IMG/VR virus record: IMGVR_UViG_2740892441_000001
Reading direction: 5' to 3' (one strand)
DNA length: 64,000 bases
Source: a virus
Taxonomy: Duplodnaviria > Heunggongvirae > Uroviricota > Caudoviricetes
Shown: in pieces, positions 36,743-56,160 of the stretch
Layout: the number at the start of each line of letters is the position of its first letter
Position numbering within the stretch: the first letter of the stretch is position 1
Translations under genes and position numbers: made by a program
The notes under the pieces: generated by a model
The model's input: the letters and a program-made list of their open reading frames with translations, nothing else
The model's database searches: none
Told to the model about the DNA's origin: nothing

Positions 36743-36782
36743 AGATCCCTCTAAAACACACAGAGCGCGTCCATGCGCTCTA

Positions 36783-36836
36783 AAACAACTTGTTTACTGC
36801 ATCTGCTAACCAACTTGTTTTCTGGTGTGTCTAATT
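36783..36836 (-). promoter_or_regulatory. two tandem copies of conserved motif upstream of terminase small subunit
   Basis: aaacaacttgtttactgcatctgctaaccaacttgttttctggtgtgtctaatta. Confidence 0.4.
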
Positions 36837-38105: not shown

Positions 38106-38767
38106 GAATGGACCTCATCATAACTACCATTGTGATATTCCACCTTCACGCGTTCTTTGTAGTGCTTGGTGATCTGCATATCCGGGCGCAGCGCGTTCTT
38201 CAGGTCTTCGTGAGTCGTCGCCACCATTACCGTCGCACCAACCTTTCGAGCGGCACGCTGGAGGTTAGATGCCACAACCTGAGCGGTTACACGGTCTAGA
38301 ACAGCACCGAACTCGTCAGCAGCCCACACTTTAGCGCCTGACTCAATCAGTTTGGCAATCTTGAGACGATATTTCTGACCGTCTGACATTTCAGAAGGCT
38401 TGCGAACAAACAGATATGCATCGTTCAGACCTGCCATAGATAACAACCCAAGCGCATCACTGGTAGTTTTGCCCAGTTGGTCAATGACGTTAACCTCATT
38501 ATCGAAGGTAAAGTCATCAATAGAAGCTACAGAAAGCCCTTCATCCTTCATCTGGCGTTGCAACTCGCGCAACACAACGGATTTACCTGAACCGGATTGG
38601 CCGGTGATGTACACCACATCGCCCTGCTTCACTTCCAGCTCCAGATTGTCGTAAAGCGTCCACTCTTTTTCGTCCAGGCCAAGCCCGAACGACTCAGCGA
38701 TTTCCAACGTGCGCGTGGTTTTATTTACGCGTGTCTGAAACGATACGTTGATGATGTATTTGCTCAT
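38102..38767 (-). CDS. ABC-type ATPase
   Basis: 221-aa ORF; Walker A GQSGSGKS, signature-like SDGQKYR, Walker B VWAADEF, H-loop TTHE. Confidence 0.6.
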   Translation of the reverse strand: MSKYIINVSFQTRVNKTTRTLEIAESFGLGLDEKEWTLYDNLELEVKQGDVVYITGQSGSGKSVVLRELQRQMKDEGLSVASIDDFTFDNEVNVIDQLGKTTSDALGLLSMAGLNDAYLFVRKPSEMSDGQKYRLKIAKLIESGAKVWAADEFGAVLDRVTAQVVASNLQRAARKVGATVMVATTHEDLKNALRPDMQITKHYKERVKVEYHNGSYDEVHS

Positions 38768-39465
38768 GCAGCCATCTCCCCGGAAGAGATCTTCTCCGCA
38801 TATGCCACAAATGCGTCTACCCCGCTTTCTCCCGTCATTTCTTCCATGTGGGCAAGCAAATCACCAACAACAATGGCAGAGCCAGCAGGGAGCGTTTTAA
38901 AGCCCAATACGTCGATAACACGTACTTCTTCCGCTGCAACTTCACGACTGATCTCGGTGTGTTCATCCTTCTGTCGTTTAGTTTCTTCGCCCAGATCGAT
39001 AACTAGCGAGTCGGTGTCCATTTCTTCTGTCATGCTGCCAACGAGAACATTCAACTCCCGCTCTTCAAAGCCGAAAACCTCGATATCGTCCAGAACAAGC
39101 GACTCAAGTTCTTTCTGTAGCTTAATTGCATCGTAATCAATGCTGGCAAGTCGGTTATCTTCAAGGCGCTTCGCACGAACCTCGTCATCACTGAGATCAT
39201 CGCGAACAATAACCGGTACGCGCTCAAGTCCAGCAAAAATTGCAGCCTCACGGCGGCCGTGGCCAGTAATAATTACGTCGTTCTTATCGACCGTAATTGG
39301 CTGGTCAAATCCGCGCTTTTTAATGGCTGCGGCCAGATCTCGGATCTGCTGTTCATCATGCTTTTTGGCATTCATCTCATAGGGAATAAGATCTGCCGGG
39401 TCGCGATATACGATTTCAAACTTTTTGGTCATTACATACACTCCTTGTAGTAGTCGACCAGCCAC
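38764..39465 (-). CDS. ParB/Srx-fold domain protein
   Basis: 233-aa ORF; ITGHGRREAA motif typical of ParB N-terminal domain. Confidence 0.5.
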   Translation of the reverse strand: MAGRLLQGVYVMTKKFEIVYRDPADLIPYEMNAKKHDEQQIRDLAAAIKKRGFDQPITVDKNDVIITGHGRREAAIFAGLERVPVIVRDDLSDDEVRAKRLEDNRLASIDYDAIKLQKELESLVLDDIEVFGFEERELNVLVGSMTEEMDTDSLVIDLGEETKRQKDEHTEISREVAAEEVRVIDVLGFKTLPAGSAIVVGDLLAHMEEMTGESGVDAFVAYAEKISSGEMAA

Positions 39466-40112
39466 ACCAGAGCCTCACCAGCGTTCTCCATTTCATTACC
39501 GGTGTTAATAGCCTGCTCTTTGATGATGTTTTTTATGGTTTCTGCAACACGATCTGACGCATCGAAAGTTACTTTGAAGCGCATGGTCTGATGTTCCGCA
39601 CCCACACGTTCGGTTTTCTCTCGTTTGTCGGTATCGACAGGCTCATCACTACCACGAGACAACGCCTCCAGTGCTTCAAGGTCGATTGCCGCCTCTTTTG
39701 CTAAAACCATCGAGATTTCGTCGTCATACGGGGCGATTTCAGACAGTTGATAGTCAAGTTCTGACTGAATTTCTTCAATGAAGCGTTGCAATGCGATTTG
39801 GTCGTCTTCACCGTATCGCTCGTTGTCCACTAGTGACATCTGTTTAGCTACGACATCGCTAATTTTGCCCACAGAAAGCACCGGAACCGTTGAAATTCCT
39901 TGCTCAATAGCAGCACGCCAGCGATGTTCGCCGCCGAGGATTTCAAAAAATCCATCTTCAAGTTCACGAGCCAAAATTGGCTTAAAAAAGCCCAATTTTT
40001 CGATAGAACCTTTCAGTTTTTCAAAATTCTGCGCACCAACCGAATTGGTGTTCCAGGTATTCGGGCGAAGGTTGGCAACATCAACCTGCAAAATCGTGAT
40101 TTTTACATCCAT
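39432..40112 (-). CDS. ParB/Srx-fold domain protein
   Basis: 226-aa ORF; ILGGEHRWRAA motif. Confidence 0.5.
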   Translation of the reverse strand: MDVKITILQVDVANLRPNTWNTNSVGAQNFEKLKGSIEKLGFFKPILARELEDGFFEILGGEHRWRAAIEQGISTVPVLSVGKISDVVAKQMSLVDNERYGEDDQIALQRFIEEIQSELDYQLSEIAPYDDEISMVLAKEAAIDLEALEALSRGSDEPVDTDKREKTERVGAEHQTMRFKVTFDASDRVAETIKNIIKEQAINTGNEMENAGEALVWLVDYYKECM

Positions 40113-41756: not shown

Positions 41757-42035
41757 ATGAGCGAAAAGAAAACAACTTATTGTCAGGTAGCATTGACTGA
41801 TAAGGCCAATGACAAACTGGGAAAATTTCAAATGAAACTAAAAGAAAAAAACATCAAAATGTCCAAGGCTGAAGTTATCAATACCATTCTGGAGACGATG
41901 ACGATGGCTGAATTTGACAAGGTTTCATCTGCCGTTGGCGTCTCTGCTAAGGCTCGTGAAAAAATCATGCGCATCTATGAGAACTCTAATATGACAAAGG
42001 AAGACCTAGAACAAATTCTAAGCAAACTGCCATAA
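41757..42035 (+). CDS. hypothetical small protein
   Basis: 92-aa ORF coupled to helicase stop. Confidence 0.4.
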   Translation: MSEKKTTYCQVALTDKANDKLGKFQMKLKEKNIKMSKAEVINTILETMTMAEFDKVSSAVGVSAKAREKIMRIYENSNMTKEDLEQILSKLP

Positions 42036-42287: not shown

Positions 42288-42830
42288 ATGGGTGTACTTG
42301 ACATTGATAGTAATTACTTAAGTGCAAGGCGAATAAAGGAATGTGTTCATATCTATTGTAAATCAAAGCAGTCTTGTTTAGAAAAGCAGGCGTACCTAAC
42401 ATCTTCTCAAAAAGGAGAGCACAAACTCATCAAATATAAACTAAAGGCTTCGCGCAAAGATCGTTATGAGCACTATATATATGTAAAGGATATTGAAGGC
42501 ACCAAGACAAATTGCGGTATTATCTTTTATCCCTATGATATATCAAGACTGTTCTCCATTATGAAATCCTGTGTCGGCGTAGCTCCAGGTAAATTAGAGT
42601 TGCATTCAAACTTATACGATTACCCAAATGCTCAAAAACAGATAAACGATAGCACTTCGCCCTATGGATTTTCGTTTCTCTTTAAGAATCATCTCGCATT
42701 GAAAGATTTCATCGAAAAATACAATGAAGGAATAATATCAGGCGAATTAAATTTCAACAAAATCTGCGGAGATATAAAAAGGGACGACCTCTTAATAGAT
42801 ATTTACAATAGAATCCAAGTTAACGTGTAA
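42288..42830 (+). CDS. hypothetical protein (AT-rich island)
   Basis: 180-aa ORF, Lys/Ile/Asn-rich. Confidence 0.4.
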   Translation: MGVLDIDSNYLSARRIKECVHIYCKSKQSCLEKQAYLTSSQKGEHKLIKYKLKASRKDRYEHYIYVKDIEGTKTNCGIIFYPYDISRLFSIMKSCVGVAPGKLELHSNLYDYPNAQKQINDSTSPYGFSFLFKNHLALKDFIEKYNEGIISGELNFNKICGDIKRDDLLIDIYNRIQVNV

Positions 42831-43277: not shown

Positions 43278-43806
43278 TGATATGACGACGAAAGACATCA
43301 CCTACGGTGTGCCAGCAGAAGTCTGGCCTCGAGATTACACTAACGTTGAAAAACTACTGATGTTCTGGCGCAGAGAACAAATTCCTGTAAGGGCCACTCT
43401 AGAAGATGGCCAGGCGTTTTGCATGTACGTTTATGGCCTCATGCCATCTCGTAACAAAGTTGACCTTTGCCCAGCCCCTTTTGACAAAGAAAATCGTATA
43501 AGGCTCCCACTTGAACGCATTAGTACAATTGAATCAGGTGTGGTTGACAGTATCGCTCACGATTTCAAAGGTCGATTAACAGTTCACCCTGATTATGTCG
43601 ATAATCGGCCATCACGCCGCGATTTTTTTGCTATTTGCAACCAAGCCTATAAAGCAAACAAATCTATAAGGGTGTACATGGCGGATGGCCGTGAAATTGA
43701 GGGGGTGTCAGCAGGCGCAGATGCTTGTCAGGTTACACTACGTGTCGAGAACGGTAGAAAAATAGTTATTTTGTTCGATTGGGTTGAACGAATTTTGCCT
43801 TTTTGA
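43243..43806 (+). CDS. hypothetical protein
   Basis: 187-aa ORF; true start may be the internal Met about 40 nt downstream. Confidence 0.4.
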   Translation: MVQWIYCQPLYNDMTTKDITYGVPAEVWPRDYTNVEKLLMFWRREQIPVRATLEDGQAFCMYVYGLMPSRNKVDLCPAPFDKENRIRLPLERISTIESGVVDSIAHDFKGRLTVHPDYVDNRPSRRDFFAICNQAYKANKSIRVYMADGREIEGVSAGADACQVTLRVENGRKIVILFDWVERILPF

Positions 43807-45321: not shown

Positions 45322-45549
45322 ATGTTTGTTCTTATCGCTGGCGTTAACGTCCACAATGAATATTGTGTTAATGATATTGCTGGGATCGCTGGTTACGCTG
45401 GATCTGTTGAGCTTATAGATGAAACGACGCGCAAAATTGACTTATTGAGCGACCAGGAGCGAAAAAAAGCAGACGTGAACGACGCTGATATATTTTTAAT
45501 GTTAAAAGCGTTTGTAGAAATGGGATTTGAAATCAGTTTACATAAATAA
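45322..45549 (+). CDS. hypothetical small protein
   Basis: 75-aa ORF with SD AAGGAG; followed by terminator. Confidence 0.35.
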   Translation: MFVLIAGVNVHNEYCVNDIAGIAGYAGSVELIDETTRKIDLLSDQERKKADVNDADIFLMLKAFVEMGFEISLHK

Positions 45550-45554
45550 AATCG

Positions 45555-45579
45555 AGCGCCCACTATGGGCGCTTTTTTC
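45555..45579 (+). terminator. rho-independent terminator
   Basis: Hairpin agcgcccactatgggcgct plus T6; same hairpin also at about 45063-45081. Confidence 0.6.
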
Positions 45580-45600
45580 GTTTCCAATACTCCCACCATA

Positions 45601-45627
45601 ACGCGCCATCATTGGCGCGTTTTTTAT
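45601..45627 (+). terminator. rho-independent terminator
   Basis: Hairpin acgcgccatcattggcgcgt plus T6. Confidence 0.55.
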
Positions 45628-45984
45628 TGTCTTTAACTCACTCCAACAACATAAAAATAAGCGCCAAAATAACGCCATAGACGCGATTTTATATCCTCGC
45701 CAGTACATACCCATTACTTAACACATTAACGCGCTTAAAACGCGTTATATTGCGCTATAGAGTATGGTTAATCGTTGGCTTTTAGTCTTGCTTTATGATC
45801 CGCGTTTATTTGTCGGCGCGGATCGGCATTTTGTTTTGTTCCGTATCCGCTCGCGTATTATGTGCGCGTGATTTTTCACATAATCACACCACTTAATCAC
45901 GTATGTGATTATGCTACGAAAGAAATCTGGATGTCTCAGGCGACGAAAGTCATCATAATTTTCCCCGCTCACCTGTCCGACAAC

Positions 45985-46160
45985 CGCTGGTTGGATTCAA
46001 CCAGCTTCCCGATGTTTTTTCTATATAAAGGCGAATGCAGCCGTTTCCCGAAAAAATCCTGGCCGTTTCCCGTCGGCTCATGAATGCGTTCCTCGCCGTT
46101 TCTGAAAATTTCCCTGCGGCAGCTGGTGGCTATAGAGAAAGGGCCGTTTCTGGCCCTCTT
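45985..46160. repeat. iteron-like array (GCCGTTTCC units)
   Basis: About five direct copies: cagccgtttcccgaaaa, ggccgtttcccgtcgg, cgccgtttctgaaaa, gggccgtttctggccc. Confidence 0.55.
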
Positions 46161-46165
46161 CTCAG

Positions 46166-46648
46166 TTACACGCCATCAAGGATGTGGATGCGGTTGCTTG
46201 CGTATACATTCAGCATAAAGTTAGCGCAAAACAGTTTCCATGTATCAACGCCAGCGGTATACGTAATGTTTTTGCATTTAATCGCATTGTTGGCGATCCG
46301 CATCCCCTGCGATACTGCTTCATCGTCGGAAAATTTGAACGACGATTGAGTTTTAATCCAGACAGAAATCTGCGTAGCGAACTCAATCAGCTTGGACTGG
46401 CAGAATCGCCCGGAGCGCACCGGAAAGACGAACGTTCCGAATCCAGAATTTACCACATACGCTTTCTCAAATACCCGCGAGTAACGACGATTGCCAATGA
46501 TGTCGCGTGCAATAATGCATTTTTCTTGTGCTGACAGTTCTACCGTCTCATTGTCGCGCCATGCACCAAGTACTCGTTTTTCAATGTCAGAGAACGTTAC
46601 AGCGATATTGCCATGTGCGGGTGCGTTTACAGTAGCGATAAAATTCAT
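46166..46648 (-). CDS. hypothetical protein
   Basis: 160-aa ORF preceded by conserved promoter-like motif. Confidence 0.45.
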   Translation of the reverse strand: MNFIATVNAPAHGNIAVTFSDIEKRVLGAWRDNETVELSAQEKCIIARDIIGNRRYSRVFEKAYVVNSGFGTFVFPVRSGRFCQSKLIEFATQISVWIKTQSSFKFSDDEAVSQGMRIANNAIKCKNITYTAGVDTWKLFCANFMLNVYASNRIHILDGV

Positions 46649-46669
46649 GATTATTTCCTTATCGTAAAT

Positions 46670-46702
46670 AACAAATTGTTTTCTTGTTGGTGTTAATTAT
46701 CG
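46670..46702 (-). promoter_or_regulatory. conserved early promoter/operator motif
   Basis: aacaaattgttttcttgttggtgttaattatcg, one of at least 9 near-identical copies upstream of minus-strand genes. Confidence 0.5.
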
Positions 46703-46735
46703 TTGTACGAATAAGGCGTCAAAGTGGAAAGTTGC

Positions 46736-46826
46736 GGTAGCCGGACGGGAACAGGTGGGTTTTTCGGTTGCCTGGAGGTAAGAGGTTGGTGTTTTTAGCC
46801 TGCGGGAAACAGGATGGTCATTTAAG
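46736..46826. repeat. three direct ~30-bp repeats
   Basis: tagccggacgggaacaggtgggttttt / ggttgcctggaggtaagaggttggtgttttt / agcctgcgggaaacaggatggtcattt. Confidence 0.45.
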
Positions 46827-46852
46827 GCCACCAATGCTGGTGGCCTTAGTCT

Positions 46853-47134
46853 TTAGTGGAGCAGACCGATGTCGATGGTATCCCCTGAATCCCCCACACG
46901 GATCATCAGCATGGCGAAGGCGTTTAGTGGATAACTGGCGTGCCATTCAGGGAAGCGGTCATCTCGCATGAAGTCGGCAATGTCGTAAACGCAGCCCTCA
47001 AAGTGGAAGAATCGCGTGCTTACCTGCTCGTCATATTCCACATGATCCATTTCTTGCTGTTCTGTTTCCGGCAAGTCCAGCCATGATTCAAGGAATACAT
47101 TTTGTGCTTTAGGGGTAATGGTGAAATCAGTCAT
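46853..47134 (-). CDS. hypothetical protein
   Basis: Start moved to MTDFTITPK (AGGA SD). Confidence 0.4.
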   Translation of the reverse strand: MTDFTITPKAQNVFLESWLDLPETEQQEMDHVEYDEQVSTRFFHFEGCVYDIADFMRDDRFPEWHASYPLNAFAMLMIRVGDSGDTIDIGLLH

Positions 47135-47154
47135 GAGCATATCCTCACTGCGTA

Positions 47155-47186
47155 AACATATTGTTTTCTTGTTGGTGTAATTATCG
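47155..47186 (-). promoter_or_regulatory. conserved early promoter/operator motif
   Basis: acatattgttttcttgttggtgtaattatcgc. Confidence 0.45.
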
Positions 47187-47326
47187 CAGTGTAGATAAGG
47201 CATAAAAGAAGTTAATACAGGCTGAATACACAAGAAAGGTTCTGGAAGTTGATAGCCAGGTTTCAAACTAACCTTCGGTTATTAAAAGTCATTTAAGACC
47301 ACCAATGCTGGTGGCCTTAATAATTA

Positions 47327-47862
47327 TCGCCCGATTACGCTAAGGATCTTTTCCTCAACTGATTTGTTGTTGCGACTAAACTGCCTTGCGTATCTGATGA
47401 CAGAAGAGGCGTTTTGCTTTCTGACCATCTCGGCTCTTTCCTTCAGGCGTTTCTTGAAATCGCCCATATTTACCACCAGGCGCAGAACGTCAGTCTGTTA
47501 TTGTGAAAGTCGTAATTATTAATCAGCTCTTCTACAAGTGCTTTCAACTCCCCCACGTCACGCCAGTAATCTTCGTCATAATCCATGCTGCCAAAGTAAA
47601 AACCTCCAGTCGGCTCGAACTCATCCTGAGTAGGCAGAAGGGCTTCGCAATTACTCTCGTTGAGACGAATCAGAGTAGCCTTTAGAGCGCAAAGATCATT
47701 CTTTGTAATTTCTAAAAATTTAAAACTATCAACTTTGCCTACGTTCCGATTCACCCACCCAACAAGCGCATTAAACTTATAAAAATAGCCTACTTCCTTT
47801 CTGGCTGCTTCGTTATTCAGATCGTTTTTTGGCTGCGTCTCGATATAGATATCAAGTCCCAT
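47327..47862 (-). pseudogene. hypothetical protein, frame interrupted near 47470-47500
   Basis: 130-aa ORF 47470-47862 is followed by a 47-codon ORF in another frame that stays open across the stop; one added base gives a continuous ~176-aa frame. Confidence 0.35.
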
Positions 47863-47947
47863 GATGGTTTCCTTATTAAGTATTAAGTTGCTTCAGTGAA
47901 AGCATTTTCACAAATCAGATAAGGCAGAAAACAAATTATTATCGGGC

Positions 47948-47977
47948 ATAAGAAAATGGCGCGGTTTACGCGCCATT
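47948..47977 (-). terminator. rho-independent terminator
   Basis: Hairpin aaatggcgcg..cgcgccattt followed by T-rich tract on minus strand. Confidence 0.5.
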
Positions 47978-47986
47978 TAAAGAGGA

Positions 47987-48382
47987 TTAAGCGAATACGC
48001 TTTCAGGGATTAAGGTATCAGCAGGAATGCCGGATGTAATACGCAGACCGTACTGGCCAATCCAGGTGGTGCTGGTGTTCAGGCTGGAGGCGAATACGGA
48101 ATTAACCATATTCATCATGGTTTCAAACACCTCTTCATCAACCTGGCGGAAGTAGTTCTCGATTTTCAGCAGCAGCGGGTCAGTTGCATCGAGAATGGAC
48201 TGGTATTGAGTCGCGTACTCGCCGCCGGAGGCATCACCTTTACGCACGATCGTACTGGCCTGTACTTCGGCACCAGTTTCGGTGTTGTACGTAACAACGG
48301 TGATTTTTGCCACATTCTTACCTTCGGCGGTTTCAGAGGCATAGTAAACATCAACTGTCAGTTTTTCGCGTTTAACGGTCAT
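47987..48382 (-). CDS. hypothetical protein
   Basis: Start moved to MTVKREK (GGAGAG SD). Confidence 0.45.
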   Translation of the reverse strand: MTVKREKLTVDVYYASETAEGKNVAKITVVTYNTETGAEVQASTIVRKGDASGGEYATQYQSILDATDPLLLKIENYFRQVDEEVFETMMNMVNSVFASSLNTSTTWIGQYGLRITSGIPADTLIPESVFA

Positions 48383-48442
48383 TTCACTCTCCGTAGTGTA
48401 TTGGTTATTTTTATATTCTATGATCGTAAGTATGTACTTACA

Positions 48443-48474
48443 AAACAAAAAAGCCCCGTAAGGATGGCGGGGCT
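48443..48474 (-). terminator. rho-independent terminator
   Basis: Hairpin agccccg..cggggct followed by T-run on minus strand. Confidence 0.55.
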
Positions 48475-48508
48475 GTCGTACTGTCGACTAATTACCACTT
48501 GCACATTA

Positions 48509-48820
48509 TCAGGCTATTGCCATCACTGATGCTCTCTGAATCTCTTGCTGGGCCACGCGGTTAACTTCCATCAAAGCCAGTTCGAGCTGATGTTCCGGCC
48601 ACATTCTTTGAAACGCCATCCAGCCTTTTCCACGCTGGCGGCGAACATTCATTACATAACGAGTAAAGGTGTTTTTATCGAAAGACACCGCTGTTTCACG
48701 GAACAGACGAATAGAGGTTCCATTGGCAACGATGTCCAGCAAAGTTAATTGAGCAACCAGCGCAGGCTTCTCTTTTCTCTTCTGGTCTTTGTCCAGACCA
48801 AGAACCAATGATTTTTTCAT
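48509..48820 (-). CDS. hypothetical protein
   Basis: Start moved to MKKSLVLG (GGAG SD). Confidence 0.4.
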   Translation of the reverse strand: MKKSLVLGLDKDQKRKEKPALVAQLTLLDIVANGTSIRLFRETAVSFDKNTFTRYVMNVRRQRGKGWMAFQRMWPEHQLELALMEVNRVAQQEIQRASVMAIA

Positions 48821-48832
48821 CACAACTCCGTA

Positions 48833-48870
48833 AACAACTTGTTTTCTCAATGGCGTAAATAATACCAGTA
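48833..48870 (-). promoter_or_regulatory. conserved early promoter/operator motif
   Basis: aacaacttgttttctcaatggcgtaaataatacc. Confidence 0.45.
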
Positions 48871-48973
48871 AGAAAACGGCTACAAAGCATATTGATCAGG
48901 TGCATGAGCGATATGCAGGTTCTTCCCTGCGGCTATAGAGAAATTAAGCCAGCAATGCTGGCTTTGGTTGGGG

Positions 48974-49303
48974 TTACTCGAATACTTCAAGAAACTCCTG
49001 AACGTCCCAATGCTGGACGAGGTGAAGATAGACCTTAGAAATCACGTCATTTTCGCTATCGCATGTGAAGTAGTACTTCTGGCTGCGGTTGTATGTGTCC
49101 ACACAAAATTCGCTCATATCCATAAAGTCAGCATCTTCACCCATGTCGCAAATCATCAAAGCAGGTGCGTCATCACGAGTCATCAGCTCAAGCACCCACC
49201 GCGAATTGATCAGAGTGGAAGACCAACCTTCTAACTCATAAAACTGATCAAACTCTTTTTGAGTTAATTTCTTGATTTGGTTGATGTCGATATTTGCAAA
49301 CAT
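48974..49303 (-). CDS. hypothetical acidic protein
   Basis: 109-aa ORF preceded by conserved motif at about 49317-49350. Confidence 0.45.
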   Translation of the reverse strand: MFANIDINQIKKLTQKEFDQFYELEGWSSTLINSRWVLELMTRDDAPALMICDMGEDADFMDMSEFCVDTYNRSQKYYFTCDSENDVISKVYLHLVQHWDVQEFLEVFE

Positions 49304-49659
49304 AAATCAATCCTTAAACAACATGTTTTCTTATTGGTGTTATTATCGCAATAACGCATAGGCGAAAAAGGATTTTATTCCGGTGAATGTGGTTTTGGCA
49401 GTGAGTTTTCAGGTTCAGTACCGAGTACACTTTTTACATTATTCTGATTTAGTAGCCGAAGGTGGCTGGTGGGCAGAATAATCATCTCCCCGAAAACCTA
49501 CTGAAATCGATTGTGACCCGCTGACTGTCTGGCACAATTACGCTGTAGTTGGGCATTCAGAGGGAATCCAGCGGTAAGTAAGTTCGCCTGCACGTGAGCG
49601 CCTCTCTTCTTCCCGCACATTACAGGTGGATAGCCGCAACTCTCCCTCTCGCTATACCG

Positions 49660-49805
49660 GTACGCCGCCGTTCCTGAACCGGCATCGAGCCTTTTCCCGA
49701 AATCCACACAGGCAACTCGACCGTTTCCCTGAAAACCTCCAGCCGTTCCCCGAAGGCAACCCAGCCGTTTCTGTAGCGGGATGCAGCCTTTTCCCTGTAT
49801 GGACC
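49660..49805. repeat. iteron-like array (CCGTTTCC / CCTTTTCC units, six copies at ~20-30 bp spacing)
   Basis: gccgttcctgaacc, gccttttcccgaaatcc, accgtttccctgaaaacc, agccgttccccgaagg, agccgtttctgtagcgg, gccttttccctgtatgg. Confidence 0.55.
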
Positions 49806-50399
49806 GAAGGCTGACCGTAGGGGTGTTACGGGGGATAAAATCAGTAGTTGAATAAATACGAAAAAGGAGGCGACACCCCTCCTTCCCTCCCCACTTATAC
49901 ATACCTGGCTTCTTCGCTATGCATGTTGTGTTTTCTTCGTGTTTTATCTGTTTCAACCTCTCTATAGGCGTTAATGCTCACTCCTTCCAGAACGTTCTAT
50001 ACGGCAACTATTTCTGTTGGTGAATTGGGTGTGTTGTTTTCTCTGTCGGTGTATGTGGTTTCGTTCGTTTTGCGGTGGTTCTTCTATAGGGTGTTCTCGT
50101 CGTTTTGGTGATTGTTCTTCTCCGTCTATGGAGTAATGGCAGGTGGGCGATTCCTTTCGTTATTGTGTTTGAGTTGTTTGTCTGGAGTGCGTGAAGGGCT
50201 TTTGTAGTTATTCGTGTATTGGGTAATGGCGTTTCCCGTGATTGTTCTGTTTCGTGTCTTTTGGGATTGAAGAATCCTTGCGGTAACAGGCTTCGTTGGG
50301 GTTTCAGTGATTCTGGTGTTTCTTCGCTGTTTGGGTAATGGCGTGTCGTGGGTATCGCGCGTATGAATGTTTTCGGATTGCCTGTGAAAGTTAGGTTGG

Positions 50400-50465
50400 T
50401 TGTCCGGTAGCCTGGGAAGAAGAGGTGGGTCTTTTCGGTAGCCTGCCATAAAGAGGTTGGTTGTT
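50400..50465. repeat. direct repeat pair in GT-skewed noncoding tract
   Basis: cggtagcctgggaagaagaggtgggtctttt / cggtagcctgccataaagaggttggttgttttt. Confidence 0.45.
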
Positions 50466-50866
50466 TTTGGGAATGGCATATGCGTTATTTAGTTGTTTTG
50501 TTATGCCTGAAAATAAGTTGTTTATATGGTTATGTAACGCAACGGGAACGATTTTGAGCGTGTGTTTTTGTTGGTAGTGTGTTGGGTCGTCTGTGGTGAA
50601 AATTGGACGCTGTGGCGCTGTCTGCTGCGTAGGATTGCGGGTATAAGAAGTAATGTGTGAAAACGTCAATTTTTTAGACCAAATCGGGTGAAAGCGTTGA
50701 CGTTTCGTTGATCTGTTATTCAGTTGTTTTCTTGTTTGTATAAACAACTATAACCTATTGATATTTAAGGGTGTGATTGCAGGTATGGAAGGGGAGTAGT
50801 GGCGATCAACGGATTCTTATAGAAAAGAATCAAATTGTGACCGCCATTATCAATAAGTTGCAACCG

Positions 50867-51436
50867 TTAGTTGTTCAGATAAACATTTGGAACACGGACG
50901 TAGAAGTTCCTGTCACCGGTAAGTTCCAGAGTAATGTTAATGTCATTACCATTGTCTAGTGTAGCCGTTGCTCTATAGAACTTATCCGTCACCTTGTCCT
51001 CTATTGTCACCTTCATACATTTTGGTGCAGTCGAACCGTTATTCTCTTTCAGAATAGTTGTCACGAGAGGGCAGGCTGCTTCTTCAAGAGCAACCTCGTC
51101 CTTGTGTGGGATGCCGATGAAGATAATCCAAGCCAGCGACGCAACGATTATGATAAATGGCACTCTGCTGCCTTTTGTAATAGTCGCGCGCTTCCAGAGA
51201 TAGACAGGCAGGAGGAATACCCCCCATAGAATTGAAGGTGGTTCACAGCCAGACTCCGATAGAGCCATTCTGTCAGCTACTAACAAACCGATGGTAGTTA
51301 CACCCCCAATTATAATAGCGTAATTGGTATACTCTTCCGGCAATACTCCAAAGAAGAAAGGCATGAACGCTAGAATCCACGCATAAATGTTATTCAGAGG
51401 TTTTGTTTGTTGGTTCTGGGTTTCCATCACATCCAT
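50867..51436 (-). CDS. hypothetical membrane protein
   Basis: 189-aa ORF with several TM helices in N-terminal half. Confidence 0.4.
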   Translation of the reverse strand: MDVMETQNQQTKPLNNIYAWILAFMPFFFGVLPEEYTNYAIIIGGVTTIGLLVADRMALSESGCEPPSILWGVFLLPVYLWKRATITKGSRVPFIIIVASLAWIIFIGIPHKDEVALEEAACPLVTTILKENNGSTAPKCMKVTIEDKVTDKFYRATATLDNGNDINITLELTGDRNFYVRVPNVYLNN

Positions 51437-51588
51437 TCCATCACATAAAAATCGCTTTTATATATTATCAATTTTCTCACTTGTATAACCTAAATACGCA
51501 TCCGTTTATCAATCCACCTTCCACAAACATCAGCTTTGGCTATGAAAAATGACAATCTCAAAGTGAAACCATTATCATAGGATAACGA

Positions 51589-51774
51589 TTAGATGAGATG
51601 GTCTAATTCATCATCTATCATCGCTTTAACACTTGAGTCATTAACCCCGTATTGATTTATGAGCCGTTTCAGCTCCGGTGAAAACTGAAGGTAGATATCG
51701 TGGGCGTTTTTCACTGTAGGTTCAACGCCACGCATTTCAAGCGCCTTTAGTAGATATGAGTCTTCTTTAAGCAT
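51589..51774 (-). CDS. hypothetical small protein
   Basis: 61-aa ORF. Confidence 0.3.
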   Translation of the reverse strand: MLKEDSYLLKALEMRGVEPTVKNAHDIYLQFSPELKRLINQYGVNDSSVKAMIDDELDHLI

Positions 51775-51810
51775 AAATTCTCCGTTATCTAGTATGAAGC
51801 GATTGCCGGA

Positions 51811-52119
51811 TTACCATTGCCAGCACTCAAGCCCTTCAACGACCGGTGCGCCACAATCAAAATGTACAGAGTCAAAGCCTACATCAAGTACTTTCTGAAT
51901 GTTCGCAATCGCGCCCTCGGATATACCATATCGACGCAACTCATCTTTCCAGTCATCGTCCTGTAACCCGGCGTGGACAATGCAACCGTACTCAATTTGT
52001 GAAACCCAATCCAGCTCATTGCTTGCGATCATGAATCGGCGAGCATCTTCCTCTGATGTATGAGATGAGCTGATCAATGCCACCTGGTAGGCTTGGGTAA
52101 TGTTCAACATTTCAACCAC
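51811..52119 (-). CDS. hypothetical protein
   Basis: 102-aa ORF preceded by conserved motif. Confidence 0.4.
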   Translation of the reverse strand: MVEMLNITQAYQVALISSSHTSEEDARRFMIASNELDWVSQIEYGCIVHAGLQDDDWKDELRRYGISEGAIANIQKVLDVGFDSVHFDCGAPVVEGLECWQW

Positions 52120-52123
52120 TCCG

Positions 52124-52188
52124 AAACAATTTGTTTTCTTATGTGGCTTATTATCTCAATCAACAAAAGGCAGAAAACAAATTGTTTT
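52124..52188 (-). promoter_or_regulatory. conserved early promoter/operator motif (two half-copies)
   Basis: aaacaatttgttttcttatgtggcttattatc and aaaaggcagaaaacaaattgtttt. Confidence 0.45.
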
Positions 52189-52271
52189 AGGGTTTGTTAA
52201 AGTCAGAAGGGATTGTGTCTATATGAAAATGCCCAGCGTATTGCCGGGCATTGTGAAGAATGGTTGCTTAA

Positions 52272-54305
52272 TTACTTAACCTGGTGGCCAGGTTTAGCAC
52301 CAGCATCCGGGCTTAACAGGAAGATGTCTTTCCCGCCGGGGCCAGCAGCCATCACCATGCCTTCGGAGATACCGAAACGCATTTTACGCGGAGCCAGGTT
52401 AGCCACCATAATGGTGTGACGGCCAATCAGTGCCTGTGGGTCTGGATAAGCGGAACGGATGCCTGAGAAGACATTGCGTTTTTCACCGCCGAGATCCAGC
52501 GTCAGGCGCAGCAGTTTGTCAGAACCTTCAACAAAGTCTGCGTTTTCGATCAGCGCCACGCGCAGGTCAACTTTGGCAAAGTCGTCAAAGGTGATGGTTT
52601 CCTGAATCGGGTCGTCTGCCAGCGGGCCAGTAACTGGCGCGGCAGTAGCTTTCACTTCTTCTTTAGACGCTTCCACCAATGCTTCCACCTGTTTCATGTC
52701 GATACGGTTATACAGTGCTTTGAACGGATTCACTTTATGGCCCAGCAGCGGTTGCTGGATACCATCCCAGGTCAGTTCTGTATTCAGGAATGCTTCTGCA
52801 CGTTCAGTCAGTTTCGGCAGTACCGGCTTCAGGTACGTCATCAGCACGCGGAACAGGTTAATGCCCATAGAGCAAATCGCCTGCAGATCGGCATCGCGTC
52901 CTTCCTGCTTCGCCACCACCCACGGAGCCTGTTCATCGACATAGCGGTTAGCCAGGTCAGCCAATGCCATGATTTCACGGATAGCTTTACCAAATTCGCG
53001 GCTTTCCCATGCTTCGCCAATCACTTCAGCGGCATCAGTAAAGGTTTTGTACAGTTGCGAGTCAGCCAGTTCGCTTGCCAGCACGCCGTCAAAACGCTTG
53101 TTGATAAAGCCTGCATTACGGGAGGCCAGGTTAACCACTTTGTTCACGATATCGGCATTCACGCGCTGAACGAAATCCTCCAGGTTGAGATCGATATCAT
53201 CAATGCGCGAAGAGAGTTTCGCAGTGTAGTAGTAACGCAGGCTGTCGGCGTCAAAATGATTCATCCAGGTGCTGGCTTTAATAAAGGTGCCGCGAGACTT
53301 GGACATCTTCGCGCCGTTCACCGTCACATAGCCGTGAACAAACAGGTTGGTCGGCTTGCGGAAGTTGCTGCCTTCCAGCATGGCAGGCCAGAACAGGCTG
53401 TGGAAGTAAACGATATCTTTACCGATGAAGTGGTACAGCTCGGCGGTGGAGTCTTTCTTCCAGTATTCATCGAAGCTGGTAGTGTCGCCGCGCTTGTCGC
53501 ACAGATTCTTGAAGGAACCCATGTAGCCAATCGGTGCGTCCAGCCAGACGTAGAAATATTTACCCGGCGCGTTCGGAATTTCAAAACCGAAGTAAGGTGC
53601 GTCGCGGGAGATATCCCACTGTTGCAGACCAGATTCAAACCACTCCTGCATTTTGTTTGCCACCTGCTCCTGCAACGCACCGCTGCGGGTCCATGCCTGC
53701 AACATTTCGCTGAAAGAGGGCAGATCAAAGAAGAAGTGTTCAGAATCACGCATTACCGGCGTAGCGCCAGAAACTACCGATTTCGGCTCAATCAGTTCAG
53801 TCGGGCTGTAGGTCGCGCCGCAAACTTCACAGTTATCGCCGTATTGATCTGGCGCTTTACATTTCGGACAGGTGCCTTTCACAAAACGATCCGGCAGGAA
53901 CATGCCTTTTTCCGGGTCGTACAACTGAGAGATAGTGCGGTTTTTAATAAAACCGTTCTCTTTCAGGCGAGTATAGATAAGCTCAGACAGCTGGCGGTTC
54001 TCTTCGCTGTGCGTCGAGTGATAGTTGTCATAGCTGATGTTAAAGCCTGCGAAATCAGTCTGGTGTTCCTGGCTCATTTCGCCAATCATCTGTTCCGGTG
54101 TGATACCAAGCTGCTGTGCTTTCAGCATGATCGGCGTACCGTGGGCATCGTCGGCGCAGATGAAGTTGACCTCGTGGCCGCGCATTCGCTGGTAACGGAC
54201 CCAGACATCAGCCTGGATGTGCTCCAGCATATGGCCGAGGTGGATTGAGCCGTTAGCGTACGGCAGCGCGCACGTCACCAGAATTTTCTTCGCGACTTGG
54301 GTCAT
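52272..54305 (-). CDS. metG: methionine--tRNA ligase
   Basis: 677-aa protein from [25 protein letters not shown] (HLGH, KMSKS motifs, C-terminal tRNA-binding domain); matches E. coli MetG as I recall it; the 43-codon N-terminal extension in the ORF track is rejected. Confidence 0.95.
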
Positions 54306-54462
54306 AGTAGGCATTACTTCTTTGTAGTGAAAAGGGGCTTGATAGTAACAAAATGGCCTTATGTCTGCCATGTGATAACAGCATTTCTCATAAATGATTA
54401 AATGTCGTAGCTGGAGTACACTACAAGGCGACAATTGCGCAAATTAAAATAAAGGAGACGGG

Positions 54463-55563
54463 ATGAGCGAGTCCAAATCGCCGGATGCCCTGAGAGCAAT
54501 GGTAGCCGGTACGCTGGCTAATTTTCAGCACCCAACCCTGAAGCACAACCTGACTACGCTTAAAGCGTTACACCATGTTGCGTTGATGGATGACACACTG
54601 CATGTCGAACTAATCATGCCTTTCGTGTGGAATAAGCCTTTTGAAGACCTGAAAGAGCAATGTAGTGGTGATCTGCTCCGTATCACTGGCGCAAAGGCTA
54701 TCGACTGGAAGCTGTCGTACAACATTGCCACGCTTAAGCGCGTCAAAAACCAACCAGGCATTAATGGCGTTAAGAACATCATCGCCGTCAGCTCAGGCAA
54801 GGGCGGTGTAGGCAAATCGTCCACAGCAGTAAACTTGGCACTGGCGTTGGCTGCTGAAGGTGCGAAAGTTGGTATTTTGGATGCCGATATCTACGGTCCA
54901 TCAATTCCAACCATGCTGGGTGCGGAAAACCAACGTCCAACCTCACCGGACGGTACTCACATGGCACCTATCATGTCTCATGGCCTGGCAACCAACTCTA
55001 TTGGTTATCTGGTCACCGACGACAATGCAATGGTGTGGCGTGGACCGATGGCCAGCAAGGCGTTAATGCAGATGTTGCAGGAAACTCTATGGCCTGATCT
55101 GGACTATCTCGTTCTCGATATGCCGCCGGGCACTGGTGATATTCAATTGACGCTGGCGCAGAACATTCCTGTAACTGGTGCTGTTGTGGTAACTACGCCG
55201 CAAGATATCGCGCTGATCGATGCGAAGAAAGGCATTGTGATGTTCGAAAAAGTCGAAGTGCCGGTACTGGGTATCGTCGAAAACATGAGTGTGCATATTT
55301 GCAGTAACTGCGGTCATCACGAGCCAATTTTTGGCACCGGTGGCGCACAGAAGCTGGCCGAGAAATACAACACGCAGTTGTTAGGCCAAATGCCACTTCA
55401 TATCTCTCTTCGTGAAGATCTGGATAACGGAACACCAACCGTTATTAGTCGTCCAGATAGCGAATTTACGGCTATTTATCGTGACCTCGCAGATCGCGTT
55501 GCTGCCCAAATGTATTGGCAAGGTGAAGTAATACCTGGCGAAATCGCATTCCGCGCAGTGTGA
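54463..55563 (+). CDS. apbC: Fe-S cluster carrier ATPase ApbC/Mrp
   Basis: 366-aa ORF; deviant Walker A SGKGGVGKSS; CxxC motif; divergent from metG as in enterobacterial chromosomes. Confidence 0.95.
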   Translation: MSESKSPDALRAMVAGTLANFQHPTLKHNLTTLKALHHVALMDDTLHVELIMPFVWNKPFEDLKEQCSGDLLRITGAKAIDWKLSYNIATLKRVKNQPGINGVKNIIAVSSGKGGVGKSSTAVNLALALAAEGAKVGILDADIYGPSIPTMLGAENQRPTSPDGTHMAPIMSHGLATNSIGYLVTDDNAMVWRGPMASKALMQMLQETLWPDLDYLVLDMPPGTGDIQLTLAQNIPVTGAVVVTTPQDIALIDAKKGIVMFEKVEVPVLGIVENMSVHICSNCGHHEPIFGTGGAQKLAEKYNTQLLGQMPLHISLREDLDNGTPTVISRPDSEFTAIYRDLADRVAAQMYWQGEVIPGEIAFRAV

Positions 55564-56028: not shown

Positions 56029-56160
56029 TACATGAAAGAAACCCACTTAGTGCAACCGATCGAGACTCTTCACCAAACAAAAATATTTTTCTCAAATAAG
56101 AAAAGGCAGAAAACAAATTGTTTAAGGCCACTAGTTGTGGCCTTAATGGGGGAGGGGTGC

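What the first reader, a model, noticed from the sequence alone, without database searches (positions are those of the whole stretch)
46670..46702. Conserved 30-35 bp promoter/operator motif with near-palindromic core AACAAATTGTTTT repeated at least 12 times
Copies lie upstream of the helicase, parA, terminase small subunit and most small early-type genes (about 6158, 8186, 36783, 46670, 47155, 48833, 49317, 52124; half-sites at 47921, 52165, 56101, 60284). The core could bind a dimeric repressor and the motif may define an element-wide regulon. It occurs on both sides of metG-apbC.
Basis: seen in the sequence. Interest (0 to 1): 0.55.

Follow-up and report, generated by a model that had tools for sequence, protein, structure and literature searches.

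The report
Shared dyad in phage-plasmid early promoters
About a dozen promoters of an SSU5-like phage-plasmid carry the same short palindrome (AAAACAA-N-TTGTTT) at the same place, which most likely lets one still unidentified regulator switch the element's early/lytic genes together.

Summary
The window is an SSU5-like phage-plasmid, about 95% identical to Escherichia phage Cyrano, and metG-apbC is its own cargo. The dyad AAAACAA-N-TTGTT(T) occurs 13 times against 0.35 expected, plus 3-4 lone AGAAAACAA arms. All copies are intergenic, and none occurs on any of 5,426 E. coli chromosomes.

Eight copies lie about 12 nt after a GATAAT-like -10 box and 18-27 nt before the start codon, so the dyad centre is near +13. 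Four copies are inverted and overlap the -35 region, near -38. One promoter has both, 51 bp apart. The terS leader carries two.

Orthologous promoters in Salmonella, Klebsiella and divergent relatives keep both arms while the central base and the spacers drift. In published LF82 RNA-seq, 14 of 15 dyad-bearing Cyrano operons are at background in the lysogen.

The best reading is a dispersed operator of an element-wide early/lytic regulon.

The main rival is an RNA-level leader operator for the element's FljA-family protein, which I model as Hfq-like. The Salmonella fliC leader shares CAAGTTGT...TAAGGA with the dyad leaders.

The cassettes also coincide with mosaic recombination junctions. I rate this a new member of a known kind.

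The parts
46668..46682 (-). Dyad S4 (AAAACAATTTGTTAT), the copy in the finding. It lies 13 nt after GATAAT (46696-46701). Its centre at 46675 is 27 nt before the ATG (46648) of a 160-aa gene.
46696..46722 (-). Putative core promoter of S4. It reads either TTGACG (46717-46722), 15 nt, GATAAT (46696-46701), or TTGACG, 17 nt, TAATTA. The -35 and -10 blocks are conserved in orthologues while the spacer drifts.
   Evidence: The consensus promoter scan did not call it.
6157..6171 (-). Dyad S1, 26 nt before the ATG of the DnaB-like helicase (4798-6138).
8186..8200 (-). Dyad S2, 42 nt before the ATG of parA (7483-8151). This operon is the only dyad-bearing one expressed in the lysogen.
36807..36821 (-). 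Dyad S3a (AAAACAAGTTGGTTA) in the terS leader, downstream of a late-promoter-like box.
36782..36796 (-). Dyad S3b (TAAACAAGTTGTTTT). It abuts the conserved terminator-like hairpin at 36762-36781, which precedes the terS SD and ATG (36742).
47153..47167 (-). Dyad S5 (AAAACAATATGTTTA), 12 nt after GATAAT and 26 nt before the ATG at 47134.
47928..47942 (+). Dyad S6, inverted ('type B'). On the + strand it reads AGAAAACAAATTATT. It overlaps the -35 region of the promoter of the - strand gene 47470-47862 and follows the hairpin at 47956-47976.
48831..48845 (-). Dyad S7, 18 nt before the ATG at 48820.
49315..49329 (-). Dyad S8 (AAAACATGTTGTTTA), 19 nt before the ATG at 49303.
52123..52137 (-). Dyad S9-proximal, 12 nt after GATAAT and 20 nt before the ATG (52110) of a DUF5983-type gene.
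52174..52188 (+). Dyad S9-distal (type B), overlapping the -35 region of the same promoter. It is 51 bp centre-to-centre from S9-proximal.
56110..56124 (+). Dyad S10 (type B). It lies next to the hairpin at 56124-56144, 127 nt upstream of the umuD-like gene, which has its own LexA box.
60293..60307 (+). Dyad S11-distal (type B), next to the hairpin at 60307-60327. It overlaps the -35 region of the promoter for gene 59909-60238.
60250..60258 (-). A lone AGAAAACAA arm at the promoter-proximal position of the S11 promoter (TGtGAAAAT, 12 nt, AAAACAAC, GGAG, ATG).
43282..43806 (+). FljA-family (PF03614) protein with predicted tandem Hfq-like Sm domains. It is the candidate trans-factor for the RNA-level reading. 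Membership in the system is inferred, not shown.

Best explanation
The motif is the common cis-regulatory core of the early/middle, lytic-cycle promoters of an SSU5-like phage-plasmid.

Each cassette is a sigma-70-like promoter with a GATAAT-type -10 box and a TTgacGCCTT-type -35 region. It carries a 13-15 bp dyad, AAAACAA-N-TTGTTT(T), in one of two places. The dyad is centred either at about +13, between the -10 box and the Shine-Dalgarno sequence, or at about -38, over the -35 region. Some promoters have both, 51 bp apart.

I think the dyad is most likely an operator. An element-encoded regulator present in the plasmid-prophage state would bind it and block RNA polymerase binding or promoter escape. 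This would hold about 11 operons in this window, and about 15 in the whole element, off together until induction.

What is shown:
- the dyad exists, is strongly enriched and sits at fixed positions;
- it is conserved across relatives;
- it is restricted to these plasmids.

What is taken from published data: the downstream genes are silent in lysogens.

What is inferred:
- the transcription start sites;
- that binding occurs at the DNA level;
- that the effect is repression;
- the identity of the regulator, which remains unknown.

Because the cassettes are near-identical, they also serve as recombination joints for swapping small gene cassettes between relatives.
For: - Enrichment: 13 hits against 0.35 expected, 8 against 0.16 and 15 against 1.03.
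- Location: 11 of 13 centres fall in non-coding DNA (P about 7e-9).
- Geometry: in 41 non-redundant promoter-proximal copies from the family, GATAAT lies at -25 to -20 from the dyad centre. AG-AAAACAA and TTGTTT are near-invariant, and the central base is free (A14, C9, G11, T7). The centre-to-ATG distance is 18-27 nt at six sites.
- Distal copies overlap the -35 region, with 51 bp between the two copies at 52130 and 52181.
- Phylogenetic footprint: in orthologous promoters, with proteins 32-100% identical, the -35 block, the -10 block and both arms persist while spacers and the centre change. In the most divergent group the full dyad has moved from the proximal to the distal position of the same promoter.
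- Specificity: 454 matches in 242 of 5,426 complete E. coli genomes, all on plasmids of about 106-131 kb and none on a chromosome.
- Expression: in LF82(Cyrano) RNA-seq, the first genes behind 14 of 15 dyad sites read 5.7-25.5 against a background median of 9.8. The lysogeny-expressed operons (toxin-antitoxin genes, repA, CYRAN_43/45, CYRAN_117/118, apbC) lack the dyad.
- RNA structure: the leaders are no more structured than shuffles (z from -0.24 to +1.62), and no Rfam family matches.
Against: - No cognate DNA-binding protein was found.
  - The annotated HTH repressor (CYRAN_45) has a different palindrome in its own control region.
  - The ParG-like RHH protein keeps its DNA-reading strand in a Moellerella relative that lacks the dyad.
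  - The putative RHH CYRAN_117 modelled poorly (pLDDT 53), and its putative reading residues vary.
- The conserved motif is asymmetric. AG lies 5' of one arm and T-a-(a/c)-GG lies 3' of the other, and these flanks are kept in both orientations. A symmetric homodimer site does not predict this.
- The right arm is more degenerate than the left, and lone left arms occur.
- The promoters were not called by the consensus scan, because their -35 match or spacing is weak. Transcription start sites are unknown.
- parA carries the dyad yet is expressed 5-9 times above background in the lysogen.
Confidence: 0.5

Rival explanations
1. The motif is an RNA-level leader operator. It works in the mRNA, where the sequence AGAAAACAA-N-UUGUUUAAGG ends 0-10 nt before or within the Shine-Dalgarno sequence. 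The element's FljA-family protein, a predicted tandem Hfq-like Sm protein, binds it. Binding blocks translation initiation or destabilises about a dozen mRNAs, in the way FljA acts on the fliC leader or T4 RegA acts on early T4 mRNAs. At terS, binding next to the leader hairpin could instead modulate termination.
For: - A full-length PF03614 match (E = 1.1e-83), with a weak Hfq hit in the C-terminal half.
- The AF2 model has pLDDT 80.5 and shows two alpha-plus-five-beta repeats. All top Foldseek hits are Hfq, with TM-score normalised to the target of 0.66-0.84 and rmsd 1.1-2.6 A.
- The gene is present in every dyad-bearing group examined, at 33-99% identity. It is expressed in lysogens.
- FljA-type repressors prevent fliC mRNA translation, as stated in PMC2652032.
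- The Salmonella/Citrobacter fliC leader reads AACATCAAGTTGTAATTGATAAGGAAAAGATC-ATG. It shares CAAGTTGT and TAAGGA, at the same place before the start codon, with AAAACAAGTTGTTTAAGGAG.
- The motif is strand-asymmetric, A-rich and then U-rich, and unstructured.
Against: - Four of 13 copies lie upstream of the -35 region in the opposite orientation. They would appear in RNA only if the + strand or read-through is transcribed.
- An exact reverse-complement core with a free centre is what DNA-binding dimers produce. A single-strand RNA binder does not need it.
- The E. coli K-12 fliC leader has no such sequence.
- The Moellerella relative keeps a divergent FljA-like gene (hmmsearch E = 2e-12) without the dyad.
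- The protein may simply be a moron that silences host flagellin.
- The 8-mer match was noticed post hoc.
Confidence: 0.25
2. There is no dedicated trans-factor. The repeat is a spreading promoter/leader cassette: an UP-like or -35 A/T tract, an A-rich initial transcribed sequence and an unstructured translation-enhancing leader. It is kept similar by descent and gene conversion, and its main consequence is to provide homology for cassette shuffling. This would resemble the PeSL promoter-stem-loop cassettes of T4-type phages.
For: - Homology-block boundaries between the window (45-61.5 kb) and 14 relatives fall within 60 bp of a dyad in 9 of 39 boundary clusters, against about 2.5 expected (permutation P about 0.0015). 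Two more (three in all, one also near a dyad) fall on the GGCCAC hairpins.
- Type-B copies sit directly after terminator-like hairpins, giving a hairpin-plus-promoter arrangement.
- Conservation extends over about 70 bp, including positions with no obvious role.
- The distal left arm resembles a proximal UP subsite. This last point rests on my own knowledge.
- The leaders are unstructured.
Against: - The central base and the neighbouring spacers drift while both arms stay fixed, even between elements whose proteins are only 32-45% identical. The dyad also changes position relative to the same promoter. Both point to selection on the dyad itself rather than shared descent.
- A translation enhancer or initial transcribed sequence does not need reverse-complement symmetry.
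- The same 20-mer is kept in both orientations.
Confidence: 0.15
3. The dyad is a binding site for a conserved host protein, for example IHF or another nucleoid-associated or global regulator of Enterobacteriaceae. That would explain why the dyad is invariant across elements whose own regulators have diverged.
For: - The dyad is identical in E. coli, Salmonella, Klebsiella, Enterobacter and Citrobacter elements, while candidate element regulators diverge to 33-35% identity.
- It is missing from the Morganellaceae (Moellerella) relative.
- T-centred copies resemble the lambda H' IHF core ATCAATTTGTTG. This rests on my own knowledge.
Against: - No dyad matches WATCAANNNNTTR exactly, and only 2 of 13 match with one mismatch.
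- No copy of the extended motif occurs on any E. coli chromosome. A host regulon site would be expected there.
- I know of no E. coli regulator with this consensus (from memory, not tested).
Confidence: 0.05

Closest known systems
Phage-plasmid P1 C1 repressor and its dispersed operators
   Same: Both are plasmid prophages in which one short operator recurs at many promoters around the genome, so that many lytic operons are held off together.
   Different: - The P1 operator is an asymmetric 17-mer, ATTGCTCTAATAAATTT. No match with up to 3 mismatches occurs in this window.
- No C1-like protein was identified here.
- Here the core is a dyad, and its binder is unknown.
Cluster A mycobacteriophage stoperators (L5 gp71 type)
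   Same: Many copies of one 13-bp-class site lie in short intergenic regions, mostly downstream of promoters in leaders. They give genome-wide silencing in the lysogen.
   Different: - Stoperators are asymmetric, lie in one orientation relative to transcription, and act by blocking elongation.
- Here the core is palindromic.
- One third of the copies are inverted and overlap the -35 region.
- The host, the phage type and the proteins are unrelated.
Global plasmid regulons: RK2 KorA/KorB operators and pSM19035 omega heptads
   Same: Short palindromic or repeated operators at many backbone promoters co-ordinate plasmid functions. In this window parA also carries the site, and a ParG/omega-like RHH protein is encoded right after parA.
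   Different: - The ParB-like genes of this element are silent in the lysogen.
- The RHH protein's reading strand is unchanged in a relative that lacks the dyad.
- The target set here is mainly lytic/early phage genes.
PeSL (promoter-early stem-loop) cassettes of T4-type phages
   Same: Repeated cassettes of a hairpin plus an early promoter flank small early genes and coincide with mosaic junctions.
   Different: As far as I recall, PeSLs are described as sigma-70 early promoters with a stem-loop and no internal dyad operator. Here the dyad is the most conserved part.
FljA acting on the fliC leader; T4 RegA translational operators
   Same: The cis element sits just before the Shine-Dalgarno sequence of the target mRNAs. 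An FljA-family protein is encoded in the element. The Salmonella fliC leader shares CAAGTTGT...TAAGGA with the dyad leaders. RegA likewise controls many early mRNAs.
   Different: - Binding is untested.
- FljA is known for a single host target, not a multi-operon phage regulon.
- The type-B copies are not in the sense leader.
lac O1-type promoter-proximal operators (centred near +11)
   Same: The position of the proximal dyad is similar (about +13, inferred), and an auxiliary site lies about 5 helical turns away at one promoter.
   Different: The sequences and proteins are unrelated. The start sites here are inferred from the -10 box only.

Membership tests
Sigma-70-type promoter | A -10 hexamer with A at position 2 and T at position 6, at a fixed distance from the element. 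| tested here: met
   GATAAT, GAAAAT or TATTAT lies 12-13 nt upstream of the dyad at 6 of 8 proximal sites in the window. The family matrix gives G23, A25, T26, A32, A27, T39 of 41. The helicase, terS and parA copies have weaker boxes (TCTAAT, CCTAAT, TATATC).
Sigma-70-type promoter | A -35 hexamer 16-18 bp upstream of the -10 box. | tested here: inconclusive
   A conserved TTgacGCCTT block exists, but its spacing to GATAAT is 15-16 bp, or 17 bp to TAATTA. The consensus scan did not list these promoters.
Sigma-70-type promoter | A mapped transcription start. | not testable with these tools
   No TSS data are held. The published RNA-seq was available only as per-gene counts.
Dimeric-repressor operator | Dyad symmetry with an unconstrained centre. 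| tested here: met
   AAACAA / TTGTTT are 88-100% conserved at positions -6 to -1 and +1 to +6. The centre is A14, C9, G11, T7.
Dimeric-repressor operator | Symmetry extending over the whole conserved site. | tested here: not met
   AG at -9/-8 (40 of 41) has no mirror CT at +8/+9 in proximal copies. The 3' flank T-a-(a/c)-GG is kept in both orientations.
Dimeric-repressor operator | A cognate protein that binds the site. | not testable with these tools
   Candidates were examined only by sequence and model. None is convincing.
P1 C1 operator family | A match to ATTGCTCTAATAAATTT. | tested here: not met
   0 matches with up to 3 mismatches.
Stoperator (cluster A mycobacteriophages) | An asymmetric site in a single orientation relative to transcription. 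| tested here: not met
   The core is palindromic, and 4 of 13 copies are inverted relative to the downstream gene.
PeSL-like mobile promoter cassette | A stem-loop followed by an early promoter, repeated, at mosaic boundaries. | tested here: met
   Hairpins lie directly upstream of S6, S10 and S11. 9 of 39 homology-boundary clusters fall within 60 bp of a dyad (P about 0.0015). This concerns how the cassette behaves, not sequence membership.
Host repetitive element (REP/BIME/ERIC-type) | Many copies on host chromosomes. | tested here: not met
   0 chromosomal places in 5,426 E. coli genomes; all 454 places are on plasmids.
Known structured RNA family | An Rfam covariance-model match, or folding stronger than shuffles. 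| tested here: not met
   No hit at gathering score over the whole window. Leader z-scores run from -0.24 to +1.62.
FljA (PF03614) regulator and its leader target | A family-member protein encoded in the element. | tested here: met
   E = 1.1e-83 over profile positions 1-170 of 170. The fold is Hfq-like.
FljA (PF03614) regulator and its leader target | A target dyad immediately 5' of the SD, resembling the fliC leader. | tested here: inconclusive
   CAAGTTGT and TAAGGA are shared with the Salmonella/Citrobacter fliC leader but not with the E. coli K-12 leader. The binding site of FljA on fliC could not be read from the papers held.
IHF site | A match to WATCAANNNNTTR. | tested here: not met
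   No dyad matches exactly; 2 of 13 match with one mismatch.

The most novel reading that the evidence does not exclude
The dyad is the RNA operator of a phage-plasmid regulon run by an Hfq-like, tandem-Sm FljA-family protein. This protein, so far known only as the repressor of one host flagellin mRNA, would bind AGAAAACAA-N-UUGUUUAAGG at the ribosome-binding site of a dozen early mRNAs and at the terS leader hairpin.

The inverted 'type B' copies would then be transcribed divergently as short RNAs ending in the nearby hairpins. Because the core is self-complementary, these RNAs could pair with, or compete for, every leader. In effect they would form a palindromic-seed sRNA/decoy layer.
Probability: 0.2. 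Interest if true: 0.75.

Novelty: new member of a known kind. Interest (0 to 1): 0.45.

Why it matters
SSU5-like phage-plasmids are common. This promoter cassette alone is found in 242 of 5,426 complete E. coli genomes. They also occur in Salmonella (pHCM2 and SSU5 itself), Klebsiella and Enterobacter, and they can carry resistance genes.

How they control lysis versus plasmid maintenance is essentially uncharacterised. In the papers I could search I found no description of this motif.

A single conserved cis element that marks about 15 operons gives a direct experimental handle:
- a bait for pulling down the master regulator;
- a predicted regulon map;
- a way to build constitutively lytic or locked-lysogenic variants.

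If the binder turns out to be the Hfq-like FljA-family protein, it would show a flagellin repressor family acting as a global post-transcriptional phage regulator.

The coincidence of the cassettes with mosaic junctions also suggests how these elements swap small accessory genes.

Tried and rejected
- **Host repeat.** Rejected: there are no chromosomal copies.
- **Known RNA family or stable RNA structure.** Rejected.
- **P1 C1 operator and IHF consensus.** No match.
- **CYRAN_45, the annotated 'putative repressor' outside the window.** Its own control region carries a different palindrome, GGTAAGTGCTTACC, and no dyad. It diverges to 43-70% identity between elements that share the dyad. It is an unlikely binder.
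- **The 92-aa protein at 41757-42035 (CYRAN_117), 12 times background in the lysogen.**
  - Its sequence looks RHH-like by eye.
  - The AF2 model is poor (pLDDT 53.5).
  - PDB profile hits are noise.
  - Only 17 homologues were found.
  - Its putative DNA-facing residues vary among dyad-bearing elements.
  - It remains unresolved.
- **The ParG-like RHH protein after parA (7124-7483).** Its DNA-reading strand is invariant, but it is equally invariant in the Moellerella plasmid, which lacks the dyad. It is probably a local par operator or centromere binder.
- **The 88-aa winged-helix-like protein (36939-37205).** Its recognition helix is unchanged in Moellerella, and it sits beside the late-promoter-like repeats. 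It is more likely a late-promoter factor.
- **The ParB-like pair (38764-40112) as KorB analogues.** They are silent in the lysogen.
- **E. coli K-12 fliC leader.** It contains no dyad.
- **The exact-pattern scan of viral contigs.** It gave mostly single chance hits plus SSU5-like contigs with several hits each. No second, unrelated phage family with clustered copies was seen.
- **The consensus promoter scan.** It did not call these promoters.
- **FljA-like homologues in the phage collection.** They occur only in SSU5-like phages, so no independent co-occurrence test was possible.
- **The two key FljA papers.** They are not held.
- **Co-variation test with the Moellerella plasmid.** It was informative only in part. 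The dyad is gone except for remnants, but all candidate regulators persist in diverged form.

Full report
**What the window is.** Region 45500-53000 is 95% identical to Escherichia phage Cyrano (the plasmid prophage pLF82) and to other roughly 108-kb E. coli 'phages'. It is about 70% identical to Salmonella phage SSU5. The metG-apbC pair at 52272-55563 is 98% identical to copies on E. coli plasmids of 109-115 kb and only 80-90% identical to the chromosomal genes. The whole window is therefore one SSU5-like phage-plasmid, and metG-apbC is its cargo. Annotated relatives supply the gene map. Most genes are on the - strand. A + strand block at 40.2-45 kb holds a UvsW-like helicase, a 92-aa protein, a lipoprotein and an FljA-family protein.

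**The observation.**
- The core AACAAATTGTTTT with at most 1 mismatch occurs 13 times against 0.35 expected.
- AACAANTTGTT occurs exactly 8 times against 0.16.
- The arm AGAAAACAA occurs 15 times against 1.03.
- Its four 'half-sites' are in fact the flank of full dyads in inverted orientation.
- 11 of 13 dyad centres fall in the 12.5% of the window left non-coding by a crude ORF map (P about 7e-9).

**Anatomy of the proximal ('type A') copies.** Read in the direction of the - strand genes, eight copies follow one plan:
- a -35-like block TTgacGCCTT;
- a GATAAT-type -10 box;
- 12-13 nt of the form (a)ACACCAAyAAG;
- the dyad AAAACAA-N-TTGTT;
- T-A-AGGAG (the Shine-Dalgarno sequence);
- ATG.

The dyad centre is 18-27 nt before the start codon at six sites, 42 nt at parA, and 47 and 72 nt at terS. 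If transcription starts about 7 nt after the -10 box, the centre is at about +13. That start position is an inference.

**Anatomy of the distal ('type B') copies.** Four copies (47928-47942, 52174-52188, 56110-56124, 60293-60307) are inverted and overlap the -35 region, with the centre near -38. Three of them sit immediately after a terminator-like hairpin. The promoter of the DUF5983-type gene has both a distal and a proximal dyad, 51 bp apart. The promoter at 60.3 kb has a distal dyad plus a proximal lone arm.

**The motif is asymmetric beyond its core.** A matrix from 41 non-redundant proximal copies in the family shows the following:
- AG at -9/-8 in 40 of 41 copies;
- both arms 88-100% conserved;
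- a free central base (A14, C9, G11, T7);
- asymmetry beyond position +6.

Distal copies keep the same asymmetric 20-mer, AG-AAAACAA-N-TTGTT-T-a-(a/c)-GG, on the opposite strand.

**Conservation and distribution.**
- A whole-genome census of Cyrano gives about 16 sites. They lie before terS, parA, the helicase, a cobT-like gene, CYRAN_58, nrdB, tciA-like, CYRAN_87 and 93, and the small genes CYRAN_101-111.
- SSU5 and many IMG/VR SSU5-like contigs carry the same arrangement.
- In alignments of orthologous promoters, anchored on the downstream protein at 32-100% identity, the -35 block, the -10 box and both dyad arms are kept. Spacers, the centre base and the stretch between dyad and SD drift or carry indels.
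- In the most divergent group (L016/L072), the full dyad has moved to the distal position of the same promoter, leaving a proximal half-site. That argues for selection on the dyad itself.
- A syntenic Moellerella phage-plasmid (NZ_CP093251) lacks the dyad. It has one chance copy in 108 kb and a few degenerate remnants.
- The 76-bp promoter fragment matches 454 places in 242 of 5,426 complete E. coli genomes. All are on plasmids and none is on a chromosome.
- No Rfam family matches anywhere in the window.
- Six leaders fold no better than shuffles, with z from -0.24 to +1.62.

**Expression context.** Per-gene RNA-seq counts for Cyrano in LF82 lysogens come from the supplementary table of PMC9928086.
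- The first genes behind 14 of 15 dyad sites are at or near the prophage background: 5.7-25.5 against a median of 9.8.
- parA is the exception at about 50, with its operon partners at 55-89.
- The well-expressed lysogenic genes have no dyad. These are the toxin-antitoxin pairs, repA, CYRAN_43/45, CYRAN_117/118 and apbC.
- The same paper reports ciprofloxacin induction of Cyrano.

This pattern fits a motif that marks promoters kept off in the plasmid state.

**Mechanism I favour (confidence about 0.5).** The dyad is an operator. It overlaps the start or early transcribed region, or the -35 region, of autonomous sigma-70-like promoters. It is bound by an element-encoded regulator, and it gives a dispersed regulon in the manner of P1 C1 operators, cluster-A stoperators or plasmid Kor/omega networks.
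- Shown: existence, enrichment, geometry, conservation and plasmid specificity.
- Taken from published data: silence in lysogens.
- Inferred: start sites, binding, the sign of regulation and the level (DNA).

**The search for the binder failed.**
- The annotated HTH repressor CYRAN_45, which lies outside the window, has another palindrome in its own control region.
- The ParG-like RHH protein after parA keeps its reading strand in Moellerella, where the dyad is absent.
- The 88-aa winged-helix-like protein likewise keeps its recognition helix there. It sits beside a different repeat, so it is more likely a late-promoter factor.
- The 92-aa lysogeny-expressed protein looks RHH-like but modelled poorly and varies at putative reading positions.
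- The ParB-like genes are silent in lysogens.

**Main rival (about 0.25): an RNA-level operator.** The + strand block encodes a full-length FljA-family protein (PF03614, E = 1e-83).
- Its AF2 model (pLDDT 80.5) consists of two alpha-plus-five-beta repeats. All top Foldseek hits are Hfq.
- FljA-type proteins prevent translation of fliC mRNA, as stated in PMC2652032.
- The Salmonella/Citrobacter fliC leader retrieved here reads ...AACATCAAGTTGTAATTGATAAGGAAAAGATC-ATG. It shares CAAGTTGT and TAAGGA, at the same place before the start codon, with AAAACAAGTTGTTTAAGGAG.
- The strand asymmetry of the motif, its A-rich-then-U-rich make-up and its contact with the SD fit an RNA target.

Several points count against this reading:
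- the inverted distal copies are not in the sense leader;
- exact reverse-complement symmetry is not needed by a single-strand RNA binder;
- the E. coli K-12 fliC leader has no such element;
- Moellerella keeps a divergent FljA-like gene without the dyad;
- the sequence match was noticed after the fact.

**Other rivals.**
- A cassette without a trans-factor (about 0.15). Homology-block boundaries between this window and 14 relatives fall within 60 bp of a dyad in 9 of 39 boundary clusters, against about 2.5 expected (P about 0.0015). Two more (three in all, one also near a dyad) fall on the GGCCAC hairpins. The cassettes therefore do act as recombination joints, like PeSLs of T4-type phages. 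I treat this as a secondary consequence, because the dyad is more conserved than its surroundings.
- A host factor such as IHF (about 0.05). This is weakly suggested by the invariance of the motif, but the IHF consensus is not met and no chromosomal copies exist.

**Novelty.** Text searches for SSU5-type regulation and for the motif sequences themselves returned nothing relevant. The library is incomplete, so this is absence of evidence only. I file the finding as a new member of a known kind: a dispersed operator and promoter cassette of a temperate element. It has an open possibility of being a new variant if the Hfq-like FljA protein is the effector.

Noticed in passing
window 7039-7053(-)/7079-7093(+) and 36860-36874(-)/36900-36914(+): A second repeat family forms divergent pairs of TAAATATATACGGAAGCAGG (late-promoter-like, with a TATAAATA-like box). 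One pair lies between the par operon genes and one lies upstream of terS. The Moellerella relative has an analogous motif, ATTATATAAATACTATGGGAGCTAGG, about 9 times at syntenic places.
   Followed up: partly
window 36762-36781 (- strand): A conserved terminator-like hairpin, AGAGCGC-atggac-GCGCTCT followed by GTGTGTTTT, sits inside the terS leader. It lies directly after the second dyad and just before the SD and ATG (36742). This suggests that late-operon entry is controlled by termination or antitermination.
   Followed up: partly
window 56009-56028: A perfect LexA box, TACTGTATATATAAACAGTA, lies upstream of the umuD-like S24 peptidase gene (55601-55990). The Cyrano orthologue is about 15 times background in the lysogen.
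   Followed up: partly
window 43282-43806 (+): The FljA-family 'repressor of phase-1 flagellin' is predicted to be a tandem Sm protein whose domains superpose on Hfq (TM-score normalised to the target 0.66-0.84). I did not find a structural description of this family in the material available to me.
   Followed up: yes
window 7124-7483 (-): The 119-aa protein after parA was annotated 'RelE/ParE putative toxin' in Cyrano. It has a basic tail followed by a beta-alpha-alpha pattern typical of ParG/omega-type RHH centromere-binding proteins. Its KSRTMSLED strand is invariant across relatives.
   Followed up: partly
window 8259-8282: A 24-bp palindrome, TGTGATTgccAATTGttAATCACA, lies upstream of parA. 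It is a candidate par operator or centromere element distinct from the dyad.
   Followed up: no
window 46822-46849 and 47293-47320: An inverted pair of near-identical hairpins, TTAAGGCCACC....GGTGGCCTTA, brackets a roughly 440-bp segment (46850-47290). That segment is present or absent among relatives, and both hairpins are recurrent homology boundaries.
   Followed up: partly
L004 (Cyrano) 42575-42825, outside the window: The control region of the HTH 'putative repressor' CYRAN_45 carries GGTAAGTGCTTACC and related half-sites. It is probably a separate local operator. The neighbouring CYRAN_43 is expressed about 720 times above background in the lysogen, and its function is unknown.
   Followed up: partly
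window 49400-50860: This stretch has only low-complexity, doubtful ORFs and two lone AGAAAACAA arms (50034-50042, 50724-50732). It also holds a TTGTTTATACAAACAA inverted repeat. It is possibly non-coding or regulatory.
   Followed up: no
L161/L162 (Moellerella plasmid NZ_CP093251) about 78427-78448 and 85859-85904: Inverted pairs of the 12-mer ATCAACCACACA / TGTGTGGTTGAT lie upstream of nrdA and of another early gene. They may be the functional counterpart of the dyad in that lineage.
   Followed up: no
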